A stretch of DNA of 64,000 nucleotides from a virus. The translations under genes were made by a program, and so were the position numbers. Location: UHGV virus genome UHGV-0091736. The stretch is one strand, 5' to 3'. Position 1 is the stretch's first letter; each line of letters begins with the position of its first letter. The notes under the pieces are model-generated. The model was given only the letters and a program-made list of their open reading frames with translations, was not told the origin of the DNA and searched no databases. Shown one piece after another: positions 4,207-60,256 of the stretch.

Positions 4207-4600
4207 TTCCTTTTTTGAATTGTTTTCTTGCATCATTCTCTTCTCTTGTTTTAATCTTATGACAAGGATCTTTACACAGAACCTGAAAACCTTCTTTCTC
4301 ACACAGGGCACGAGAGATGATTTCATCCCAAGTCGCTTCATGATCAAGAGGAACGATAGGATTTATATGATCTATAGCCATATCCTTTACAGGGTGGTCA
4401 GAACCACACATGGCACACTTAAAGTGCATTGCCAGTCTACCTGTCTTTGGATTAATCTTCTGCTCTGTCTTGGCGTCTGCTAGTGCATCGAACATGGGCT
4501 TCCACTTTCTAGTCAGAGAACGAATCCCTGACTTGATGAAAGAATTATAACGAGCTTCAGTCCACGTTCCACTACAGCGTGTCTTCTCAGACTTCGCCAT
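4199..4600 (-). CDS. HNH endonuclease
   Basis: CAMCG ... AIDHINP ... CHKIKT spacing typical of HNH zinc-finger nucleases. Confidence 0.6.
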   Translation of the reverse strand: MAKSEKTRCSGTWTEARYNSFIKSGIRSLTRKWKPMFDALADAKTEQKINPKTGRLAMHFKCAMCGSDHPVKDMAIDHINPIVPLDHEATWDEIISRALCEKEGFQVLCKDPCHKIKTREENDARKQFKKGNE

Positions 4601-7144: not shown

Positions 7145-8630
<1,486 letters not shown>

Positions 8631-8631
<1 letters not shown>

Positions 8632-8891
8632 TATTCTATTCCACGCTCTTTCAGAGCTTCTAACAATCCATTGTGATTAGCAGCACATTCTGTGTACTGG
8701 TCCTGATACCACTCCAACGTAGTGGCTAGTGCTTTTCCTTGAGCACTTTCTAAAAGAGGTAGGTCAACCCTACATTCAGCTTTTAGGTTTGTTGGTAAGG
8801 GCATTGATTGCCTGCTGTTGTCGCTCGTTGAACAAGCTGACATACTCATCACTAGCGCAGACATTATAAAAAACTGGTTTAGTTTTCTCAT
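8631..8891 (-). CDS. Small lipoprotein, o-spanin-like (overlapped with the next gene in another frame)
   Basis: Signal peptide ending in a lipobox-like MSAC when started at MRKLNQ; overlaps the 3-prime part of the TM/coiled-coil gene. Confidence 0.3.
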
Positions 8892-9126
8892 AATGCATCT
8901 CTTTATAAACGGTTTCCGTGTTCTTCTTCCAGTTAGATAAACCGGTAAGAACCCTCTGAGCAACTTCATCAGCTGCTCTATTTCTTTCAATCTCTAACTC
9001 TTGTTGATGTTTCTCTTTGTCCAGATTACTGCTGTCTGTTTGATATTCGTTAAACTTCATACCACCAAAGAATACAAGAGCTGAGAAAACGATAAACCCT
9101 AAGTTATCACTTAATGTGTTTTGCAT
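8776..9126 (-). CDS. N-terminal TM plus coiled-coil protein, i-spanin-like
   Basis: Hydrophobic helix LGFIVFSALVFFGG then helical periplasmic region; GGAG 7 nt upstream of ATG at 9126. Confidence 0.35.
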   Translation of the reverse strand: MQNTLSDNLGFIVFSALVFFGGMKFNEYQTDSSNLDKEKHQQELEIERNRAADEVAQRVLTGLSNWKKNTETVYKEMHYEKTKPVFYNVCASDEYVSLFNERQQQAINALTNKPKS

Positions 9127-9135
9127 GTTGTCTCC

Positions 9136-9165
9136 AACGAAAAAAGCCACCCGGAGGTGGCTAAG
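9136..9165 (-). terminator. Rho-independent terminator downstream of the SSB-like gene
   Basis: Hairpin AGCCACC-CGGAG-GTGGCT flanked by A-run/T-run. Confidence 0.5.
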
Positions 9166-9183
9166 CTATAACAAGGAGAGTTA

Positions 9184-9930
9184 TTAGAATGGGCTATCGT
9201 TGTCGTCTTCGTAAGTAGAAGCAGGCTCTTTATCAATCGTAGGGATTGAAGGAGTAGCTTCTTTCTGCTCTGTTTCAGAAGCACGAGTAATTTCACGACC
9301 AGCCAGAGGCATGTTCTTAGCGTCATTAGCTTGAGTAAGCAGGTTGCGCTGGAACGGGAACATCAGTTGATAGGATGCTACGTTCTCATCGGTTTCAGCA
9401 TACGGTTCGAAGAATACCAGAGGACTACGAGCTTCACCAACTGCTGCACGATATTTGGTTGGGATTGGAGAAATGGTCTTGATGGAGTTTTTAACTTCAC
9501 CAGCTTTGTTAGTATAAGAGTTAACCAGAATGTTAACAGGCTGACCTAACAGAACATCCTTGAACCAAGACAGATCACCTTTCAGTGCTTGAATACTTGG
9601 GTCAATCATCTTGCAAAGATCAAGAATACCAGAGTTCTTAGCTCGTGGGTTTACATCATAGCTCTTGAACTGGCAAGCCGGACGCGGTTCTAATGCCTTA
9701 CCATCGGAATCTTTACCAGTAGCATCAACGCCAATCAGCTCGAAAGCTAAATCCATACGGAAAGCCGGATTCTTAGGAGTTACTGCTTTGGTCTTCGGGT
9801 CAATCCAAGGGTCACGATTGTGAACACCTAAACCTACTACACGAACGATACGTGCTTCGTATTCGCCATCAGGGATTACATCGTAGTTGGATTTACGGGA
9901 AGAGGTTGCGATAGTTGGAATCATGCTCAT
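9184..9930 (-). CDS. Single-stranded DNA-binding protein (T7 gp2.5-like)
   Basis: Acidic C-terminal tail ending in Phe (YEDDNDSPF); flanked by a long promoter-like region and a terminator. Confidence 0.5.
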   Translation of the reverse strand: MSMIPTIATSSRKSNYDVIPDGEYEARIVRVVGLGVHNRDPWIDPKTKAVTPKNPAFRMDLAFELIGVDATGKDSDGKALEPRPACQFKSYDVNPRAKNSGILDLCKMIDPSIQALKGDLSWFKDVLLGQPVNILVNSYTNKAGEVKNSIKTISPIPTKYRAAVGEARSPLVFFEPYAETDENVASYQLMFPFQRNLLTQANDAKNMPLAGREITRASETEQKEATPSIPTIDKEPASTYEDDNDSPF

Positions 9931-9988
9931 TATTAATTTCCTTATTTAATTTGAAAGATTGTTGCTCTCTTTGAGCGGTTATGTATAA

Positions 9989-9997
9989 TATACATTA
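9989..9997 (-). promoter_or_regulatory. TAATGTATA promoter-like element upstream of the SSB-like gene
   Basis: Exact 9-mer on the minus strand about 60 nt upstream of the start at 9930. Confidence 0.4.
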
Positions 9998-10524
9998 CAT
10001 ATATAGTGTAGGAACTACCGGAAGGTAGTAGGTTTTGTCCAAACAAAAGTCTCTTTAGAGTTATTTATTGGGGATTGCCTCTTATAAACCCGAGACTGTC
10101 TAGCAGTTACATAAGCCCTAGCTCTCTGTAGCTGCATACTTATGATTAAATTTCATGGTAGTATATCTCTAAGTGCTATAATGTATATAAGTTATAGCTG
10201 ATAAAGTTATTGCACGGGACTGACGACGATAAGGCGCAGACGACAATCTCTCATAAGTTTGTAAGAAATTGAGAGGCTACCGGAAGGGCAGGAGCCACCT
10301 GCGAGATAAAAATAGAGAATTAAGGAATCCTTGATTTAGGTTGTAGGGACTCCTAGGGACTTTGATTCTCTATTTAAAAGAATAAATAATTATTATATCT
10401 AACACTAAACAAATTGATACAAAAACAAGAAACTTCTTGTAAATACTCATTAATTATTACCTAAATAGTTAACTAGTTTACTTAATATTAATCTCTGATA
10501 GAATCTTTAGATACTACAGGTTCT

Positions 10525-11028
10525 TTAAATAATGAGATCTTGCTCTTTTCTCCTTTCATCAAAAACCTTCCTAATCTCTTGCAGAGAAACAGCTTTATAA
10601 TCAATTTGCTCCATTGATGTACAGAAGTATCTCCAATCATCAATTACATGGTTATGAGTATGAGCATAAATATTAAACTTCCCTCTCATCTCATCAGTGT
10701 GAATAGGAATATGAGTTACCCAAAACTCTTTATATTTATAATCACCTGAGATTCTACGGAAGACTTTCATCATATCAGGAAGAAGTTCTAACCTGTCATG
10801 ATTCCCTAAGACTAAATGCTTCTCTCCTTTTACTTCAGCGATGATATCAAGGGCATATTTTTCAAATACCCAATCACCGGTAAAGAAGACTTTATCACGC
10901 TTAGTTACATGATCAAATGCAGCTAGAATTGCTTTGTCATGCTCTTCAATATTCTTAAACTGTTTACGAAAACTACAGATGTTACGATGGCCTAAGTGAC
11001 CATCTCCTGCAAAATAAACTTCAGCCAT
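10525..11028 (-). CDS. Metallophosphoesterase (calcineurin-like phosphoesterase / phosphatase)
   Basis: GDGHLGH ... GDW ... GNHD ... HTH motifs. Confidence 0.7.
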   Translation of the reverse strand: MAEVYFAGDGHLGHRNICSFRKQFKNIEEHDKAILAAFDHVTKRDKVFFTGDWVFEKYALDIIAEVKGEKHLVLGNHDRLELLPDMMKVFRRISGDYKYKEFWVTHIPIHTDEMRGKFNIYAHTHNHVIDDWRYFCTSMEQIDYKAVSLQEIRKVFDERRKEQDLII

Positions 11029-11037
11029 AAAGACCTC

Positions 11038-11226
11038 TTAAATTATACACCCATTACAAACATAGTCTCCACTAAGAGACTCTTGTAATAAACGATTTTG
11101 TTCCTCTGAATATAAAGAATCTACTAACTCCTTTAACTCTGAAAGAGTAATGAAATCAATAGTATTTCCATTATCTAAAATAGAAGAGTTAAGTAAGTAT
11201 TCATTATCTTTAATCTTATTAATCAT
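11038..11226 (-). CDS. Hypothetical protein
   Basis: ORF only. Confidence 0.3.
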   Translation of the reverse strand: MINKIKDNEYLLNSSILDNGNTIDFITLSELKELVDSLYSEEQNRLLQESLSGDYVCNGCII

Positions 11227-11523
11227 TCTTCATCTCCTCCTACTTCAGCGTATACTTTAACTTTTCCCTTAAGGATTACCTTTGAAGCATTAGCGCTTTC
11301 TTCGGAGTGATGTACAATGGTCATCTCTTTCTTTCCAATCTTATATGTGTGAACCCAAATCATTCTTCTTCCTCATATTCCCAATTTCTTTCATAATAAC
11401 CAGAGCTATAACATAGAGTGCATTTCTCAGCCTCTTCTATGTCATCGGTGTTTAAGATATTCACCCACCCTCCACCCTCATCAAAACCTTCTTCTGCTTC
11501 ATTAATCCATACGCTATATTTCT

Positions 11524-58637: not shown

Positions 58638-59696
58638 ATGGCTAATCCAACTTTATTTGTATCGTATGACCAGAATGGTAAAAAACTTTCTTTTGCTAAC
58701 TGGATTTCTGTTCTGTCCCCTCAGGATACCCCGTTCGTATCCATGACCGGTAAAGAGTCTATCAACCAGACTATCTTTAGCTGGCAGACCGATGCACTGG
58801 CAAGCGTTGACGGTAATAACGCACACGTCGAAGGCTCTCGTGCTGAAGACGGCGAAATGAAACCGACTGTTATCAAGTCTAACGTTACTCAGATTCTGCG
58901 TAAGGTTGTTCGTGTTTCTGATACTGCTAACACCACCGCTAACTACGGTCGTGGTCGTGAACTGATGTATCAGCTGGAGAAGAAAGGTAAAGAGATCAAG
59001 CGTGACCTCGAGAAAATCCTTCTGTCCGGTCAGGCTCGTACCGACGTTCTGGCTGACCAGTACCTGACTAACTCTGCAACTGATCCTGCTGTTGTTGGTC
59101 TGAATGACACCCATGCAGCTCGTAAGACTGGTGCATTCCAGTTCCTGTGTGCTCACGGTGGTCTGGCTGGTGGTGTTGTTGACAAGACCAAGAATGGTCC
59201 TGCTGACCCGGATACTGGTGCAGTAACTGTTAAAGTTGCACAGAATGCTTCTAACCTGACCACTAACATTGGTTTCGACGAAGCTGATATCTTTGATATG
59301 ACTCTGCAACTGTATACCGCTGGTTCTGAAGCAGATATCATCATGATTAACCCGGCTCATGCTAAGATCTTCGCTGGTCTGCAAGAAAATACTCAGGGTT
59401 CACGTAAGCGTATCTTTGAGAACACCAAGCAGTTCATCTACGAAGTTAACAGCATCACTGACCCGCTGGGTCAGAGCTACAAAATCATCGTTAACCGTTG
59501 GATGCCTACCGATGCAGTTTACTTCTTCCGTAGCGCTGACTGGACTCAGATGGTTCTCCGTGCTCCGAAACGTACTGAACTGGCTAAGGACGGTTCTTAC
59601 GAGAAGTGGATGATTGAAATGGAAGTTGGTCTGCGTCACCGCAACCCATATGCTTCCGGCGTTCTGTTCACTGCTGCGGGAAAGGTGGCGGCGTAA
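58638..59696 (+). CDS. Major capsid protein (putative)
   Basis: 352-aa ORF after scaffold, followed by a strong terminator. Confidence 0.55.
   Translation: MANPTLFVSYDQNGKKLSFANWISVLSPQDTPFVSMTGKESINQTIFSWQTDALASVDGNNAHVEGSRAEDGEMKPTVIKSNVTQILRKVVRVSDTANTTANYGRGRELMYQLEKKGKEIKRDLEKILLSGQARTDVLADQYLTNSATDPAVVGLNDTHAARKTGAFQFLCAHGGLAGGVVDKTKNGPADPDTGAVTVKVAQNASNLTTNIGFDEADIFDMTLQLYTAGSEADIIMINPAHAKIFAGLQENTQGSRKRIFENTKQFIYEVNSITDPLGQSYKIIVNRWMPTDAVYFFRSADWTQMVLRAPKRTELAKDGSYEKWMIEMEVGLRHRNPYASGVLFTAAGKVAA
59678..59684 (+). promoter_or_regulatory. Candidate -1 programmed ribosomal frameshift site (G GGA AAG)
   Basis: X XXY YYZ heptamer in the capsid zero frame 10 nt before its stop; the -1 frame is open from 59618 to 60220. 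Confidence 0.55.
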
Positions 59697-60220
59697 CAGT
59701 AGACAGTGTGACTGTTAGCCCTGCGTCTTTAGCAAGTCTAGAGACAGGGGCTACTCGGCAGTTCACTGCAAGCGCGGAGAAAAGTGATGGTTCTACCGAA
59801 ACAACTGGCTTTACTTGGTCAGTGACAGGAGGTGGTTCTATCACTCAGTCGGGTTTGTATACTGCTCCGAGTGCGTCTCAATCCACTGATGTATCCATTA
59901 CTGCAACTTTAGAAGGTGTTTCTGGTACAGCAACCATTTCTGAAATTGTTGCTCCTGCTCCTACTATTGTGAGTCGTGGGCCAATTACAGGTAAAGTAGG
60001 TGGTACTACCACTAACTTCAACACCATGTTTACTGTAACTAATTCTATTGCTGATGATTATACACTTGTTGTAACTCCCGCAGAAGCTGGTACAATAAGC
60101 GCTAATAATTCGTTAAAATTAGATGCTGCTGCAAGTGGCGAAGTTACTGTTCAAGCTAGTTTGACAGCCACTCCGTCTATCAATGCAACATGCACTTTTA
60201 CTGGTGTAACACCTGCTTAA
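59685..60220 (+). CDS. Ig-like C-terminal extension of the capsid protein, made by the -1 frameshift
   Basis: No ATG (track start is GTG at 59708); Thr/Ser/Gly-rich beta-type sequence. Confidence 0.5.
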
Positions 60221-60227
60221 AACTAGA

Positions 60228-60256
60228 CCCTGCCTTCGGGCGGGGTTTTTCGTTTT
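60228..60256 (+). terminator. Rho-independent terminator after the capsid region
   Basis: Stem CCCTGCC/GGCGGGG, loop TTCG, TTTTT. Confidence 0.6.

What the first reader, a model, noticed from the sequence alone, without database searches (positions are those of the whole stretch)
59618..60220. Programmed -1 frameshift at GGGAAAG would fuse an Ig-like domain to the capsid protein
The heptamer G GGA AAG lies in the capsid zero frame 10 nt before its stop, and the -1 frame is open from 59618 to 60220 with no ATG. It encodes about 170 residues of Thr/Ser/Gly-rich beta-type sequence typical of capsid decoration domains. The same heptamer is the slippery site of the lambda G-T shift.
Basis: partly seen in the sequence, partly recalled or inferred. 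Interest (0 to 1): 0.65.

Follow-up and report, generated by a model that had tools for sequence, protein, structure and literature searches.

The report
Known capsid frameshift adding Ig domains
This is the already published -1 ribosomal frameshift of phiEco32-like (Kuravirus) phages, in which a small share of capsid protein copies read on into two immunoglobulin-like domains; it is real but not new.

Summary
GGGAAAG (59678-59684) lies in the capsid frame as G_GGA_AAG, 9 nt before the TAA. The -1 frame is open from 59618 to 60220. A shift would turn the 352-aa, 38.7-kDa capsid protein into a 527-aa, 55.9-kDa fusion.

The window is a Kuravirus, and its junction is identical to that of phiEco32. 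All 18 distinct Kuravirus-like junctions examined keep the heptamer in frame. All but SU10 keep a -1 ORF of 174-540 codons. The extension shows purifying selection only in the -1 frame (dN/dS 0.2-0.3). It has no Shine-Dalgarno sequence and no conserved start codon. It models confidently (pLDDT 93) as two tandem Big_2-type Ig-like domains. Salmonella phage 7-11 makes the same fusion from a second, in-frame capsid gene.

The mechanism is already published: Mirzaei 2014 for SU10, citing phiEco32; Privateer 2021, with mass spectrometry of virions; and YF01 2023, whose GenBank record carries a joined CDS.

The only possibly new detail is a conserved stem-loop with covariation at 59704-59768. It lies too far downstream to be a classical stimulator.

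The parts
58638..59696 (+). Major capsid protein gene, zero frame: 352 aa, 38.7 kDa, HK97-fold SU10-type MCP
   Evidence: Pfam SU10_MCP PF17236, E 2e-76. PHROG 1328 'major head protein', 4e-117. 99.7% aa identity to phiEco32 gp11. Strong Shine-Dalgarno, -6.5 kcal/mol.
59678..59684 (+). Slippery heptamer G_GGA_AAG, the site of tandem -1 tRNA slippage (GGA to GGG, AAG to AAA)
   Evidence: In the capsid frame. Invariant in all 18 distinct Kuravirus-like junctions and also present in Privateer and CsaP_009. Named as the slip site in PMC4281155, PMC7881722 and PMC9965538.
59684..60220 (+). -1 frame extension: 178 sense codons plus TAA. It begins by re-reading G59684 and encodes GGGVTVDS... followed by two tandem Ig-like (Big_2-type) domains. 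Databases annotate it as a separate 'Ig domain containing protein' (phiEco32 gp12).
   Evidence: PHROG 13745 'Ig domain containing protein', 6.5e-75. dN/dS 0.2-0.3 in this frame and above 1 in the other two. AlphaFold pLDDT 93, all-beta. Foldseek best hit is the LigA tandem Big_2 domains, E 4e-11. The profile hits LigA and the C-terminal domain of a 448-aa major capsid protein, 6qvk, at 6e-8.
59685..59724 (+). Candidate hairpin A directly 3' of the heptamer. The upper 10 bp (GGC.UAACAGU / ACUGUUAGCC) start 5 nt after the slip site.
   Evidence: dG -15.5 kcal/mol, z -1.96, 11 of 200 shuffles fold as well. 96% of cells pair across 17 sequences, but there is no compensatory change because the arms are invariant. 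The lower stem is lost in Bas93. Weak evidence.
59704..59768 (+). Conserved stem-loop B inside the extension coding sequence. It is mutually exclusive with hairpin A. Its role is unknown, and it lies 19-23 nt 3' of the heptamer.
   Evidence: dG -32.6 kcal/mol, z -4.68, 0 of 200 shuffles. It is the RNAalifold consensus. Three pairs show double changes: cols 55-69 GC 7 / UA 6 / AU 4; cols 56-68 GC 11 / UG 5; cols 37-91 AU 11 / GC 3. 98% of cells pair, against 26-49% when partners are slid.
59708..59710 (+). GTG used as the start of the separately annotated Ig-domain gene in phiEco32-type records; probably not a real initiation codon
   Evidence: Shine-Dalgarno duplex energy is -1.7 kcal/mol, equal to the background mean of -1.6, against -6.1 to -11.4 for neighbouring genes. 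The codon is ATA in NJ01-type and GTA in ECBP2-type relatives.
60225..60248 (+). Intrinsic terminator closing the capsid plus extension transcription unit
   Evidence: 10-bp stem with 6 GC pairs, followed by TTCGTTTT. Annotated as a terminator in SU10. No terminator lies between the capsid stop and the extension.

Best explanation
The region is the capsid gene of a phiEco32-like (Kuravirus) podophage. Most ribosomes terminate at TAA 59694 and make the 352-aa major capsid protein. A minority slip back one nucleotide on G_GGA_AAG (59678-59684). In that event the P-site Gly-tRNA re-pairs from GGA to GGG and the A-site Lys-tRNA from AAG to AAA. These ribosomes then read the -1 frame to 60220.

The product is a 527-aa protein that is the complete capsid protein up to Lys348, a short Gly-rich linker, and two tandem Big_2-type Ig-like domains. 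Because it keeps the full HK97-fold body, this long form should co-assemble into the prolate head as a minor subunit and display the Ig domains on the outside. There they most likely give weak adhesion to carbohydrate or cell surfaces.

Shown here: the site, the frame, conservation, selection, the fold, and the absence of an independent start signal. Taken from the literature: two capsid species in virions of close relatives. Inferred: the shift efficiency, the surface location and the adhesive function.
For: - Site and frames.
- Capsid identity.
- The junction is identical over 125 nt to phiEco32.
- The heptamer is invariant, and the -1 ORF runs 174-540 codons in 17 of the 18 distinct Kuravirus-like junctions; SU10 is the truncated exception.
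- The same heptamer abuts the stop codon in Privateer and CsaP_009, with a 168-codon -1 ORF. It is annotated there as 'minor capsid protein; frameshift from major capsid protein; verified via mass spectrometry'.
- Other slip sites (G_GUA_AAG, A_AAA_AAG) occupy the same position in more distant relatives, which also have -1 Ig ORFs.
- Extension dN/dS is 0.2-0.3 in the -1 frame only.
- No Shine-Dalgarno sequence and no conserved start codon.
- One transcription unit.
- Tandem Ig-like fold.
- Phage 7-11 encodes the same capsid-Ig fusion in frame, as a second capsid paralogue.
- Literature: PMC4281155 (GGGAAAG slippage fusing gp9 and gp10 'as in phiEco32'; 38.5 and 55.4 kDa forms by MS), PMC7881722, and PMC9965538. 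The YF01 record has a joined CDS.
Against: - No experiment exists on this exact genome.
- The SU10 cryo-EM head shows no extra density (PMC9509320). That is explained by a 1-nt insertion that truncates the SU10 extension (PMC9965538).
- No convincing classical stimulator was found. Hairpin A is only marginally more stable than shuffles and shows no covariation. The well-supported stem-loop B is 19-23 nt away.
- The adhesive function of the Ig domains is untested in this group. In ES17, glycan binding was assigned to the tail fibre (PMC7885116).
Confidence: 0.9

Rival explanations
1. The Ig-domain ORF is an independent gene, as annotated in phiEco32 (gp12), SU10 (gp10) and most GenBank records. 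It would start at GTG 59708 or further downstream and make a free decoration protein that binds the head non-covalently, like T4 Hoc.
For: Most records annotate it this way. The SU10 cryo-EM paper treats gp10 as a possible loosely bound minor capsid protein. There is a weak PHROG match to 'Hoc-like head decoration', 9.5e-4.
Against: The Shine-Dalgarno energy upstream of the GTG is at background level: -1.7 against -6.1 to -11.4 kcal/mol for real genes. The GTG is ATA or GTA in relatives, whereas the -1 frame stays open back to the heptamer in every intact genome. Annotated starts differ arbitrarily between records. Gene-caller products range from 110 to 259 aa. Phage 7-11 has the domains covalently fused to a capsid paralogue. 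[quoted passage not shown]
Confidence: 0.05
2. The long form arises from transcriptional slippage, in which RNA polymerase adds or drops a base in the G3A3 run, rather than from ribosomal slippage.
For: The outcome, a -1 frame fusion, would be the same. Sequence alone cannot separate the two routes.
Against: From general knowledge, transcriptional slippage in bacteria needs homopolymer runs of about 6 or more A or T, and here the runs are 3 nt. The conserved feature is the X_XXY_YYZ register in the zero frame, including the variants A_AAA_AAG and G_GUA_AAG that end in A_AAG. That register is what tRNA re-pairing requires.
Confidence: 0.03
3. The -1 ORF is a decaying remnant or a chance open frame, and no long form is made in this phage.
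For: SU10 carries a truncated version and still grows (PMC9965538), so the extension is dispensable in the laboratory.
Against: The ORF is intact in the window. dN/dS is 0.2-0.3 in this frame only. The Ig fold is confident. The arrangement is conserved across genera. The chance probability is about 2e-5.
Confidence: 0.02

Closest known systems
phiEco32 gp11/gp12, SU10 gp9/gp10 and YF01 gp8 (Kuravirus major capsid protein with a -1 frameshift extension)
   Same: The same gene, the same heptamer GGGAAAG, the same position 9-12 nt before the stop, and the same Ig-like extension. The window's junction is identical to phiEco32 over 125 nt, and the capsid is 99.7% identical. Described in PMC4281155 and PMC9965538.
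   Different: Nothing of substance. The extension differs at a few residues: 93% nt identity to phiEco32 in the extension against 98.8% in the capsid. SU10 has a truncating insertion that the window lacks. YF01 and some metagenomic relatives carry longer extensions of 367-540 codons.
Proteus phage Privateer major and minor capsid proteins
   Same: An SU10-type capsid, the GGGAAAG slip site, a -1 Ig-like extension of 168 codons, and a terminator after the extension. Two bands and MS detection were reported in virions.
   Different: The capsid is only 57% identical. The heptamer abuts the stop codon directly (GGGAAAG TAA). The extension is a different Ig-like type, with an I-set-like sequence.
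T7 and T3 gene 10A/10B capsid frameshift
   Same: A -1 programmed frameshift near the 3' end of a podophage major capsid gene that gives a minor, longer capsid subunit co-assembled into the head at about 10%. It is cited as the precedent in PMC7881722 and PMC9965538.
   Different: The capsid family is unrelated at sequence level. From memory, the T7 slip site is G_GUU_UUC and the T7 extension is short (about 50 aa).
Lambda G / G-T tail assembly chaperone frameshift
   Same: The identical slippery heptamer G_GGA_AAG, and a fixed low ratio of long to short product (about 3.5%, as cited in PMC9965538).
   Different: It acts on a tail assembly chaperone, not a capsid protein, and its product is not part of the virion. 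There is no Ig domain.
Prolate-head major capsid protein with a C-terminal Big_2 domain (PDB 6qvk/6qyd, which I recall as phi29 gp8), and the long capsid paralogue of Salmonella phage 7-11
   Same: A capsid body covalently joined to C-terminal Big_2-type Ig domains on a prolate podophage head. The profile of the extension hits the C-terminal domain of 6qvk at 6e-8. The 7-11 long paralogue is 585 aa.
   Different: In these the fusion is in frame. In 6qvk every subunit carries the domain. In 7-11 the short-to-long ratio is presumably set by a terminator between two gene copies rather than by frameshifting.
T4 Hoc
   Same: Ig-like domains displayed on the head surface, proposed to mediate weak adhesion to mucus or cell surfaces. 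There is a weak PHROG 'Hoc-like' match.
   Different: Hoc is a separate gene product that binds the capsid non-covalently. No frameshift is involved.

Membership tests
-1 programmed ribosomal frameshift cassette (tandem slippage) | X_XXY_YYZ heptamer in the zero frame of the upstream ORF | tested here: met
   G_GGA_AAG at 59678-59684 is in the capsid frame.
-1 programmed ribosomal frameshift cassette (tandem slippage) | A long ORF in the -1 frame that overlaps the site, is under purifying selection in that frame, and lacks its own initiation signals | tested here: met
   The -1 frame is open 59618-60220. dN/dS is 0.2-0.3 in the -1 frame and above 1 in the other frames. There is no Shine-Dalgarno sequence (-1.7 kcal/mol) and the GTG is not conserved.
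-1 programmed ribosomal frameshift cassette (tandem slippage) | Slip site and frame relationship conserved in relatives | tested here: met
   All 18 distinct Kuravirus-like junctions keep the heptamer in frame. Privateer and CsaP_009 have the same heptamer. Other lineages have A_AAG-type sites at the same place.
-1 programmed ribosomal frameshift cassette (tandem slippage) | A stimulatory RNA structure 5-9 nt downstream, or an upstream SD-like element | tested here: inconclusive
   Hairpin A has the right spacing but z is only -1.96 and there is no covariation. Stem-loop B is stable (z -4.7) and covaries but lies 19-23 nt away. No SD-like motif is visible within about 20 nt upstream of the heptamer (read).
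-1 programmed ribosomal frameshift cassette (tandem slippage) | Two protein products sharing an N-terminus, or a junction peptide | not testable with these tools
   Reported for relatives only. SU10 gave 38.5 and 55.4 kDa forms by MS (PMC4281155). Privateer gave two bands plus MS (PMC7881722). phiEco32 is known to me only through secondary citation.
SU10-type major capsid protein (Pfam PF17236) | Match to the family HMM above the gathering score over the full length | tested here: met
   257.8 bits against a cut-off of 24.1, covering residues 12-344 of 352. The portal and adaptor genes match SU10 families in the same gene order.
Bacterial Ig-like domain group 2 (Big_2, Pfam PF02368) | Match to the Pfam HMM | tested here: not met
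   The window's extension gives no Big_2 hit even at E <= 10. Five of its 25 homologues carry precomputed PF02368.
Bacterial Ig-like domain group 2 (Big_2, Pfam PF02368) | Ig-like beta-sandwich fold related to solved Big_2 domains | tested here: met
   The model has pLDDT 93 and two all-beta domains. Foldseek finds the LigA tandem Big_2 domains at E 4e-11 and Big_2-CBM56 at 1e-5. The sequence profile finds LigA at 6e-8 and 'Bacterial Ig-like domain, group 2' 2mog at a weak 0.14.

The most novel reading that the evidence does not exclude
The conserved, covarying stem-loop B (59704-59768) and the mutually exclusive hairpin A (59685-59724) might form an RNA switch. Such a switch could tune how many capsid subunits receive Ig domains, or could couple termination at UAA 59694 to downstream events. 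B sits at the mRNA entrance exactly when the zero-frame ribosome has the stop codon in its A site. This would be an unusual long-spacer modulator of a bacterial -1 frameshift, and none of the Kuravirus papers I read describes it.
Probability: 0.12. Interest if true: 0.35.

Novelty: already known. Interest (0 to 1): 0.1.

Why it matters
The finding matters mainly for annotation. Most of the roughly 100 Kuravirus records in GenBank still list the extension as a separate 'Ig domain containing protein' or 'hypothetical protein' with arbitrary start codons. As a result, the real 56-kDa minor capsid protein is missing from protein databases and from proteomics search sets.

Biologically, the long form places Ig-like domains on the head of phages that are being developed for therapy against pathogenic E. 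coli, ES17 among them. These domains could affect mucus adherence, pharmacokinetics or immunogenicity, and this has not been tested. None of this changes what is known about frameshifting.

Tried and rejected
- **Pfam scan of the extension.** No family was found even at E <= 10. The Ig assignment had to come from PHROGs, a profile search against the PDB, and the predicted fold.
- **Original phiEco32 paper (Savalia 2008).** It is not held under its PubMed or PMC id, so the primary evidence for phiEco32 is cited second-hand.
- **H-type pseudoknot.** I considered pairing the loop of hairpin A (CAGUG 59704-59708) with CACUG 59762-59766. I rejected it because the pairing is absent in NJ01-type and L038-type sequences (alignment).
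- **Stem-loop with the heptamer in its loop.** Mirzaei 2014 proposed CUGCUGC-GGGAAAG-GYGGCGG. It can form in the window, but the ribosome must melt it before reaching the site, and it is only 4 bp in ECBP2-type sequences. I do not count it as a stimulator.
- **Folding of the 113 nt after the heptamer as a whole.** Not significant, z -1.46. Only the sub-region 59704-59770 is.
- **Downstream folds in distant relatives.** L008, L011 and L014 are not significantly stable, with z from -0.4 to -1.7. Stem-loop B is therefore Kuravirus-specific.
- **IMG/VR and metagenome scans.** They returned few loci (10, 19 and 18). The phage collection had to supply the diversity.
- **ES17 paper as a source for Ig-domain function.** Rejected, because it assigns glycan binding to the tail fibre.

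Full report
**1. What is in the sequence**

The ORF at 58638-59696 encodes a 352-aa protein ending ...FTAAGKVAA*. GGGAAAG occupies 59678-59684 and reads G_GGA_AAG in that frame. It is followed by GTG GCG GCG and then TAA at 59694-59696.

The -1 frame is open from 59618 to the TAA at 60218-60220, which is 201 codons. A -1 shift on the heptamer gives a 527-aa, 55.9-kDa protein, compared with 38.7 kDa for the short form. The junction reads ...GVLFTAAGK|GGGVTVDSVTVSPASL....

- There is one ATG in the -1 frame, at 60026.
- The extension is 179 residues.
- It holds two domains, not one.

**2. Is it more than chance?**

The window has 18 in-frame X_XXY_YYZ heptamers (Y = A/T) in long ORFs. Only this one is followed by a long -1 ORF: 178 codons, against 34 for the next best. 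A 200-codon open stretch at this composition has a probability of about 2e-5.

**3. What the genes are**

The ORF is an SU10-type major capsid protein (Pfam PF17236, 2e-76). It sits between an SU10-type portal, a scaffold gene and an SU10-type adaptor. The region is 96-99% identical to Kuraviruses DE5, ES17, phiEco32 and SU10, and the capsid protein is 99.7% identical to that of phiEco32. The 125 nt from the heptamer onward are identical to phiEco32.

The extension has no Pfam hit. It does match PHROG 13745 'Ig domain containing protein' at 6.5e-75. A profile built from its homologues matches solved Big_2-type domains:
- LigA, at 6e-8;
- the T5 tail-tube protein C-terminal domain;
- the C-terminal domain of a 448-aa major capsid protein, 6qvk/6qyd, which I recall as phi29 gp8.

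AlphaFold gives a confident model (pLDDT 93) of two tandem beta-sandwiches. Its best structural match is the tandem Big_2 pair of Leptospira LigA, E 4e-11.

**4. Comparative test of the frameshift**

I collected relatives from IMG/VR, metagenomes and GenBank phages.

| Lineage | Slip site and position | -1 extension |
|---|---|---|
| Kuravirus-like, 18 distinct junction variants | GGGAAAG in frame, 9-15 nt before the capsid stop | 174-540 codons |
| SU10 | same heptamer | a 1-nt insertion creates a TAG after 11 codons, as already noted in PMC9965538 |
| Privateer, CsaP_009 (57% capsid identity) | GGGAAAG directly abutting TAA | 168 codons |
| Aeromonas-like group (L008-L011) | G_GUA_AAG, 3 nt before the stop | 88-169 codons, Big_2-like |
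| One metagenome contig (L013) | A_AAA_AAG | 40 codons |
| Salmonella phage 7-11 | no frameshift | in-frame Ig repeats on a second gene copy |

Phage 7-11 has a short capsid gene (312 aa), then a terminator, then a second capsid paralogue of 585 aa with in-frame Ig repeats. Different genetic routes to the same covalent capsid-Ig product argue that the fusion is the functional molecule.

**5. Coding and initiation**

Between Kuravirus lineages, the extension has dN/dS of 0.2-0.3 in the -1 frame. The same DNA read in the other two frames gives 1.2-2.5. The capsid body gives 0.02-0.11.

The extension diverges much faster than the capsid. Against NJ01 it is 66.5% nt identical, compared with 95.3% for the capsid. 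This fits an exposed domain.

The GTG at 59708, used as the start codon in phiEco32-type annotation, has a Shine-Dalgarno duplex energy of -1.7 kcal/mol. The background mean is -1.6, and neighbouring genes give -6.1 to -11.4. The codon is ATA or GTA in other lineages. Annotated starts differ between records.

There is no terminator between the capsid stop and the extension. A strong one follows the extension at 60225-60248.

**6. RNA structure**

Two mutually exclusive candidates exist.

- *Hairpin A (59685-59724).* Its upper 10 bp start 5 nt after the heptamer, which is a canonical spacing. It is only marginally more stable than shuffles (dG -15.5, z -1.96). Its arms are invariant, so nothing can be learned from covariation.
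- *Stem-loop B (59704-59768).* It is clearly stable (dG -32.6, z -4.68, 0 of 200 shuffles) and is the RNAalifold consensus. Three pairs show double changes: one pair takes GC, UA and AU, and a synonymous Ser position covaries with a non-synonymous E/P/Q/L position. 98% of cells are paired, against 26-49% when partners are slid.

Stem-loop B lies 19-23 nt from the slip site, outside the classical 5-9 nt window, so its role is open. From general knowledge, lambda's G-T shift on the same heptamer works at a few percent without a strong stimulator. A basal shift here therefore needs no structure.

**7. What is already known**

- Mirzaei et al. 2014 (PMC4281155) identified 'a potential ribosomal slippage (GGGAAAG)' in the SU10 major head gene. 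[quoted passage not shown]
- Corban et al. 2021 (PMC7881722) found the same signal in Privateer, together with two capsid bands and MS detection of the minor capsid protein. They state that both products were observed in phiEco32 and SU10. Their GenBank record carries a joined CDS.
- The YF01 paper (PMC9965538) describes the event for the whole Kuravirus-like group, notes the SU10 truncation, and deposits a joined CDS.
- The SU10 cryo-EM study saw no extra head density, which is consistent with that truncation.

**8. Mechanism and function**

*Shown here:* the site, the register, conservation, selection, the fold, and the lack of an independent start signal.

*Taken from the literature:* two capsid species in virions of close relatives.

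*Inferred:*
- The shift efficiency is probably a few percent to about 10%, by analogy with lambda G-T and T7 gene 10 as cited in PMC9965538.
- The long form probably co-assembles into the head, which in SU10 is built from 715 capsid subunits (PMC9509320).
- The Ig domains are probably displayed on the outside and probably give weak adhesion.

The function is untested in this group. In ES17 the glycan binding was assigned to the tail fibre.

**9. Verdict**

It is already known, so interest is low. What remains of value is that most GenBank records still mis-annotate the extension as a separate gene, and that stem-loop B has not been described.

Noticed in passing
window 59704-59768: A stable stem-loop (dG -32.6, z -4.7) lies inside the extension coding sequence. 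It has compensatory changes across Kuraviruses: one pair takes GC, UA and AU. It is mutually exclusive with the hairpin next to the slip site, and it sits at the ribosome's mRNA entrance when the zero-frame stop codon is in the A site. None of the papers I read describes it.
   Followed up: partly
L002 (SU10, KM044272) 2541-2600; column 36 of alignment A2: The deposited SU10 sequence has a 1-nt insertion that puts a TAG 11 codons after the heptamer. Yet the 2014 proteomics table lists a 55.4-kDa '9+10' head protein, while the 2022 cryo-EM study sees no extra density. Either the stocks differ or the MS assignment was driven by the search database.
   Followed up: partly
L021 / L051 (Salmonella phage 7-11, HM997019) 8481-11257: There are two tandem capsid paralogues. 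One is short (312 aa). The other is 585 aa with in-frame Ig-like repeats. An annotated rho-independent terminator lies between them. The short-to-long ratio therefore appears to be set by transcription attenuation instead of frameshifting.
   Followed up: partly
L012 / L035 (metagenome contig Ga0157372_10016995) 3492-4560: The capsid gene has no -1 ORF. It is followed by a terminator-like hairpin and then the start of a second capsid copy (MATLVSYDLNGKK...) that runs off the contig. This is probably the same duplicated arrangement as in phage 7-11.
   Followed up: no
L008-L011 (IMG/VR contigs of 82-97 kb) about 4405-4450: Relatives with 58-66% capsid identity carry a -1 Ig-domain ORF but a non-canonical site, G_GUA_AAG, 3 nt before TAA. 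In L008-L010 it is followed after 7 nt by the GC-rich hairpin GCG(C/U)CC-CUAC-GGGCGU, with a C-to-U change that keeps the pairing. L013 has A_AAA_AAG with only a 40-codon extension.
   Followed up: partly
L023, L024, L025, L038, L041 (YF01): The length of the Kuravirus extension is modular, at 174, 367, 432, 439 or 540 codons behind an identical slip site. This suggests gain and loss of Ig-like repeats.
   Followed up: no
window 58638-59693 versus 59684-60217: Codon usage contrasts sharply. The capsid body has GC3 0.47 and uses preferred Gly and Thr codons almost exclusively (25 of 26 and 29 of 29). The extension has GC3 0.25 and mixed codons (16 of 19 and 24 of 35). This fits a low-abundance product or a module acquired separately.
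   Followed up: no
ES17 (MN508615 / NC_070984) 7630-9233: The ES17 mucin and heparan-sulfate study assigns binding to the tail fibre and says no Ig-like fold is involved. However, ES17 carries this same capsid-Ig extension, 98.2% identical to the window. Its possible contribution to mucus binding was not examined.
   Followed up: no
window 59671-59691: The heptamer can sit in the loop of a 7-bp hairpin, CUGCUGC-GGGAAAG-GUGGCGG, which was noted for SU10 by Mirzaei 2014. The pairing is kept in NJ01-type sequences despite a 3-nt insertion, but it is only 4 bp in ECBP2-type sequences.
   Followed up: partly
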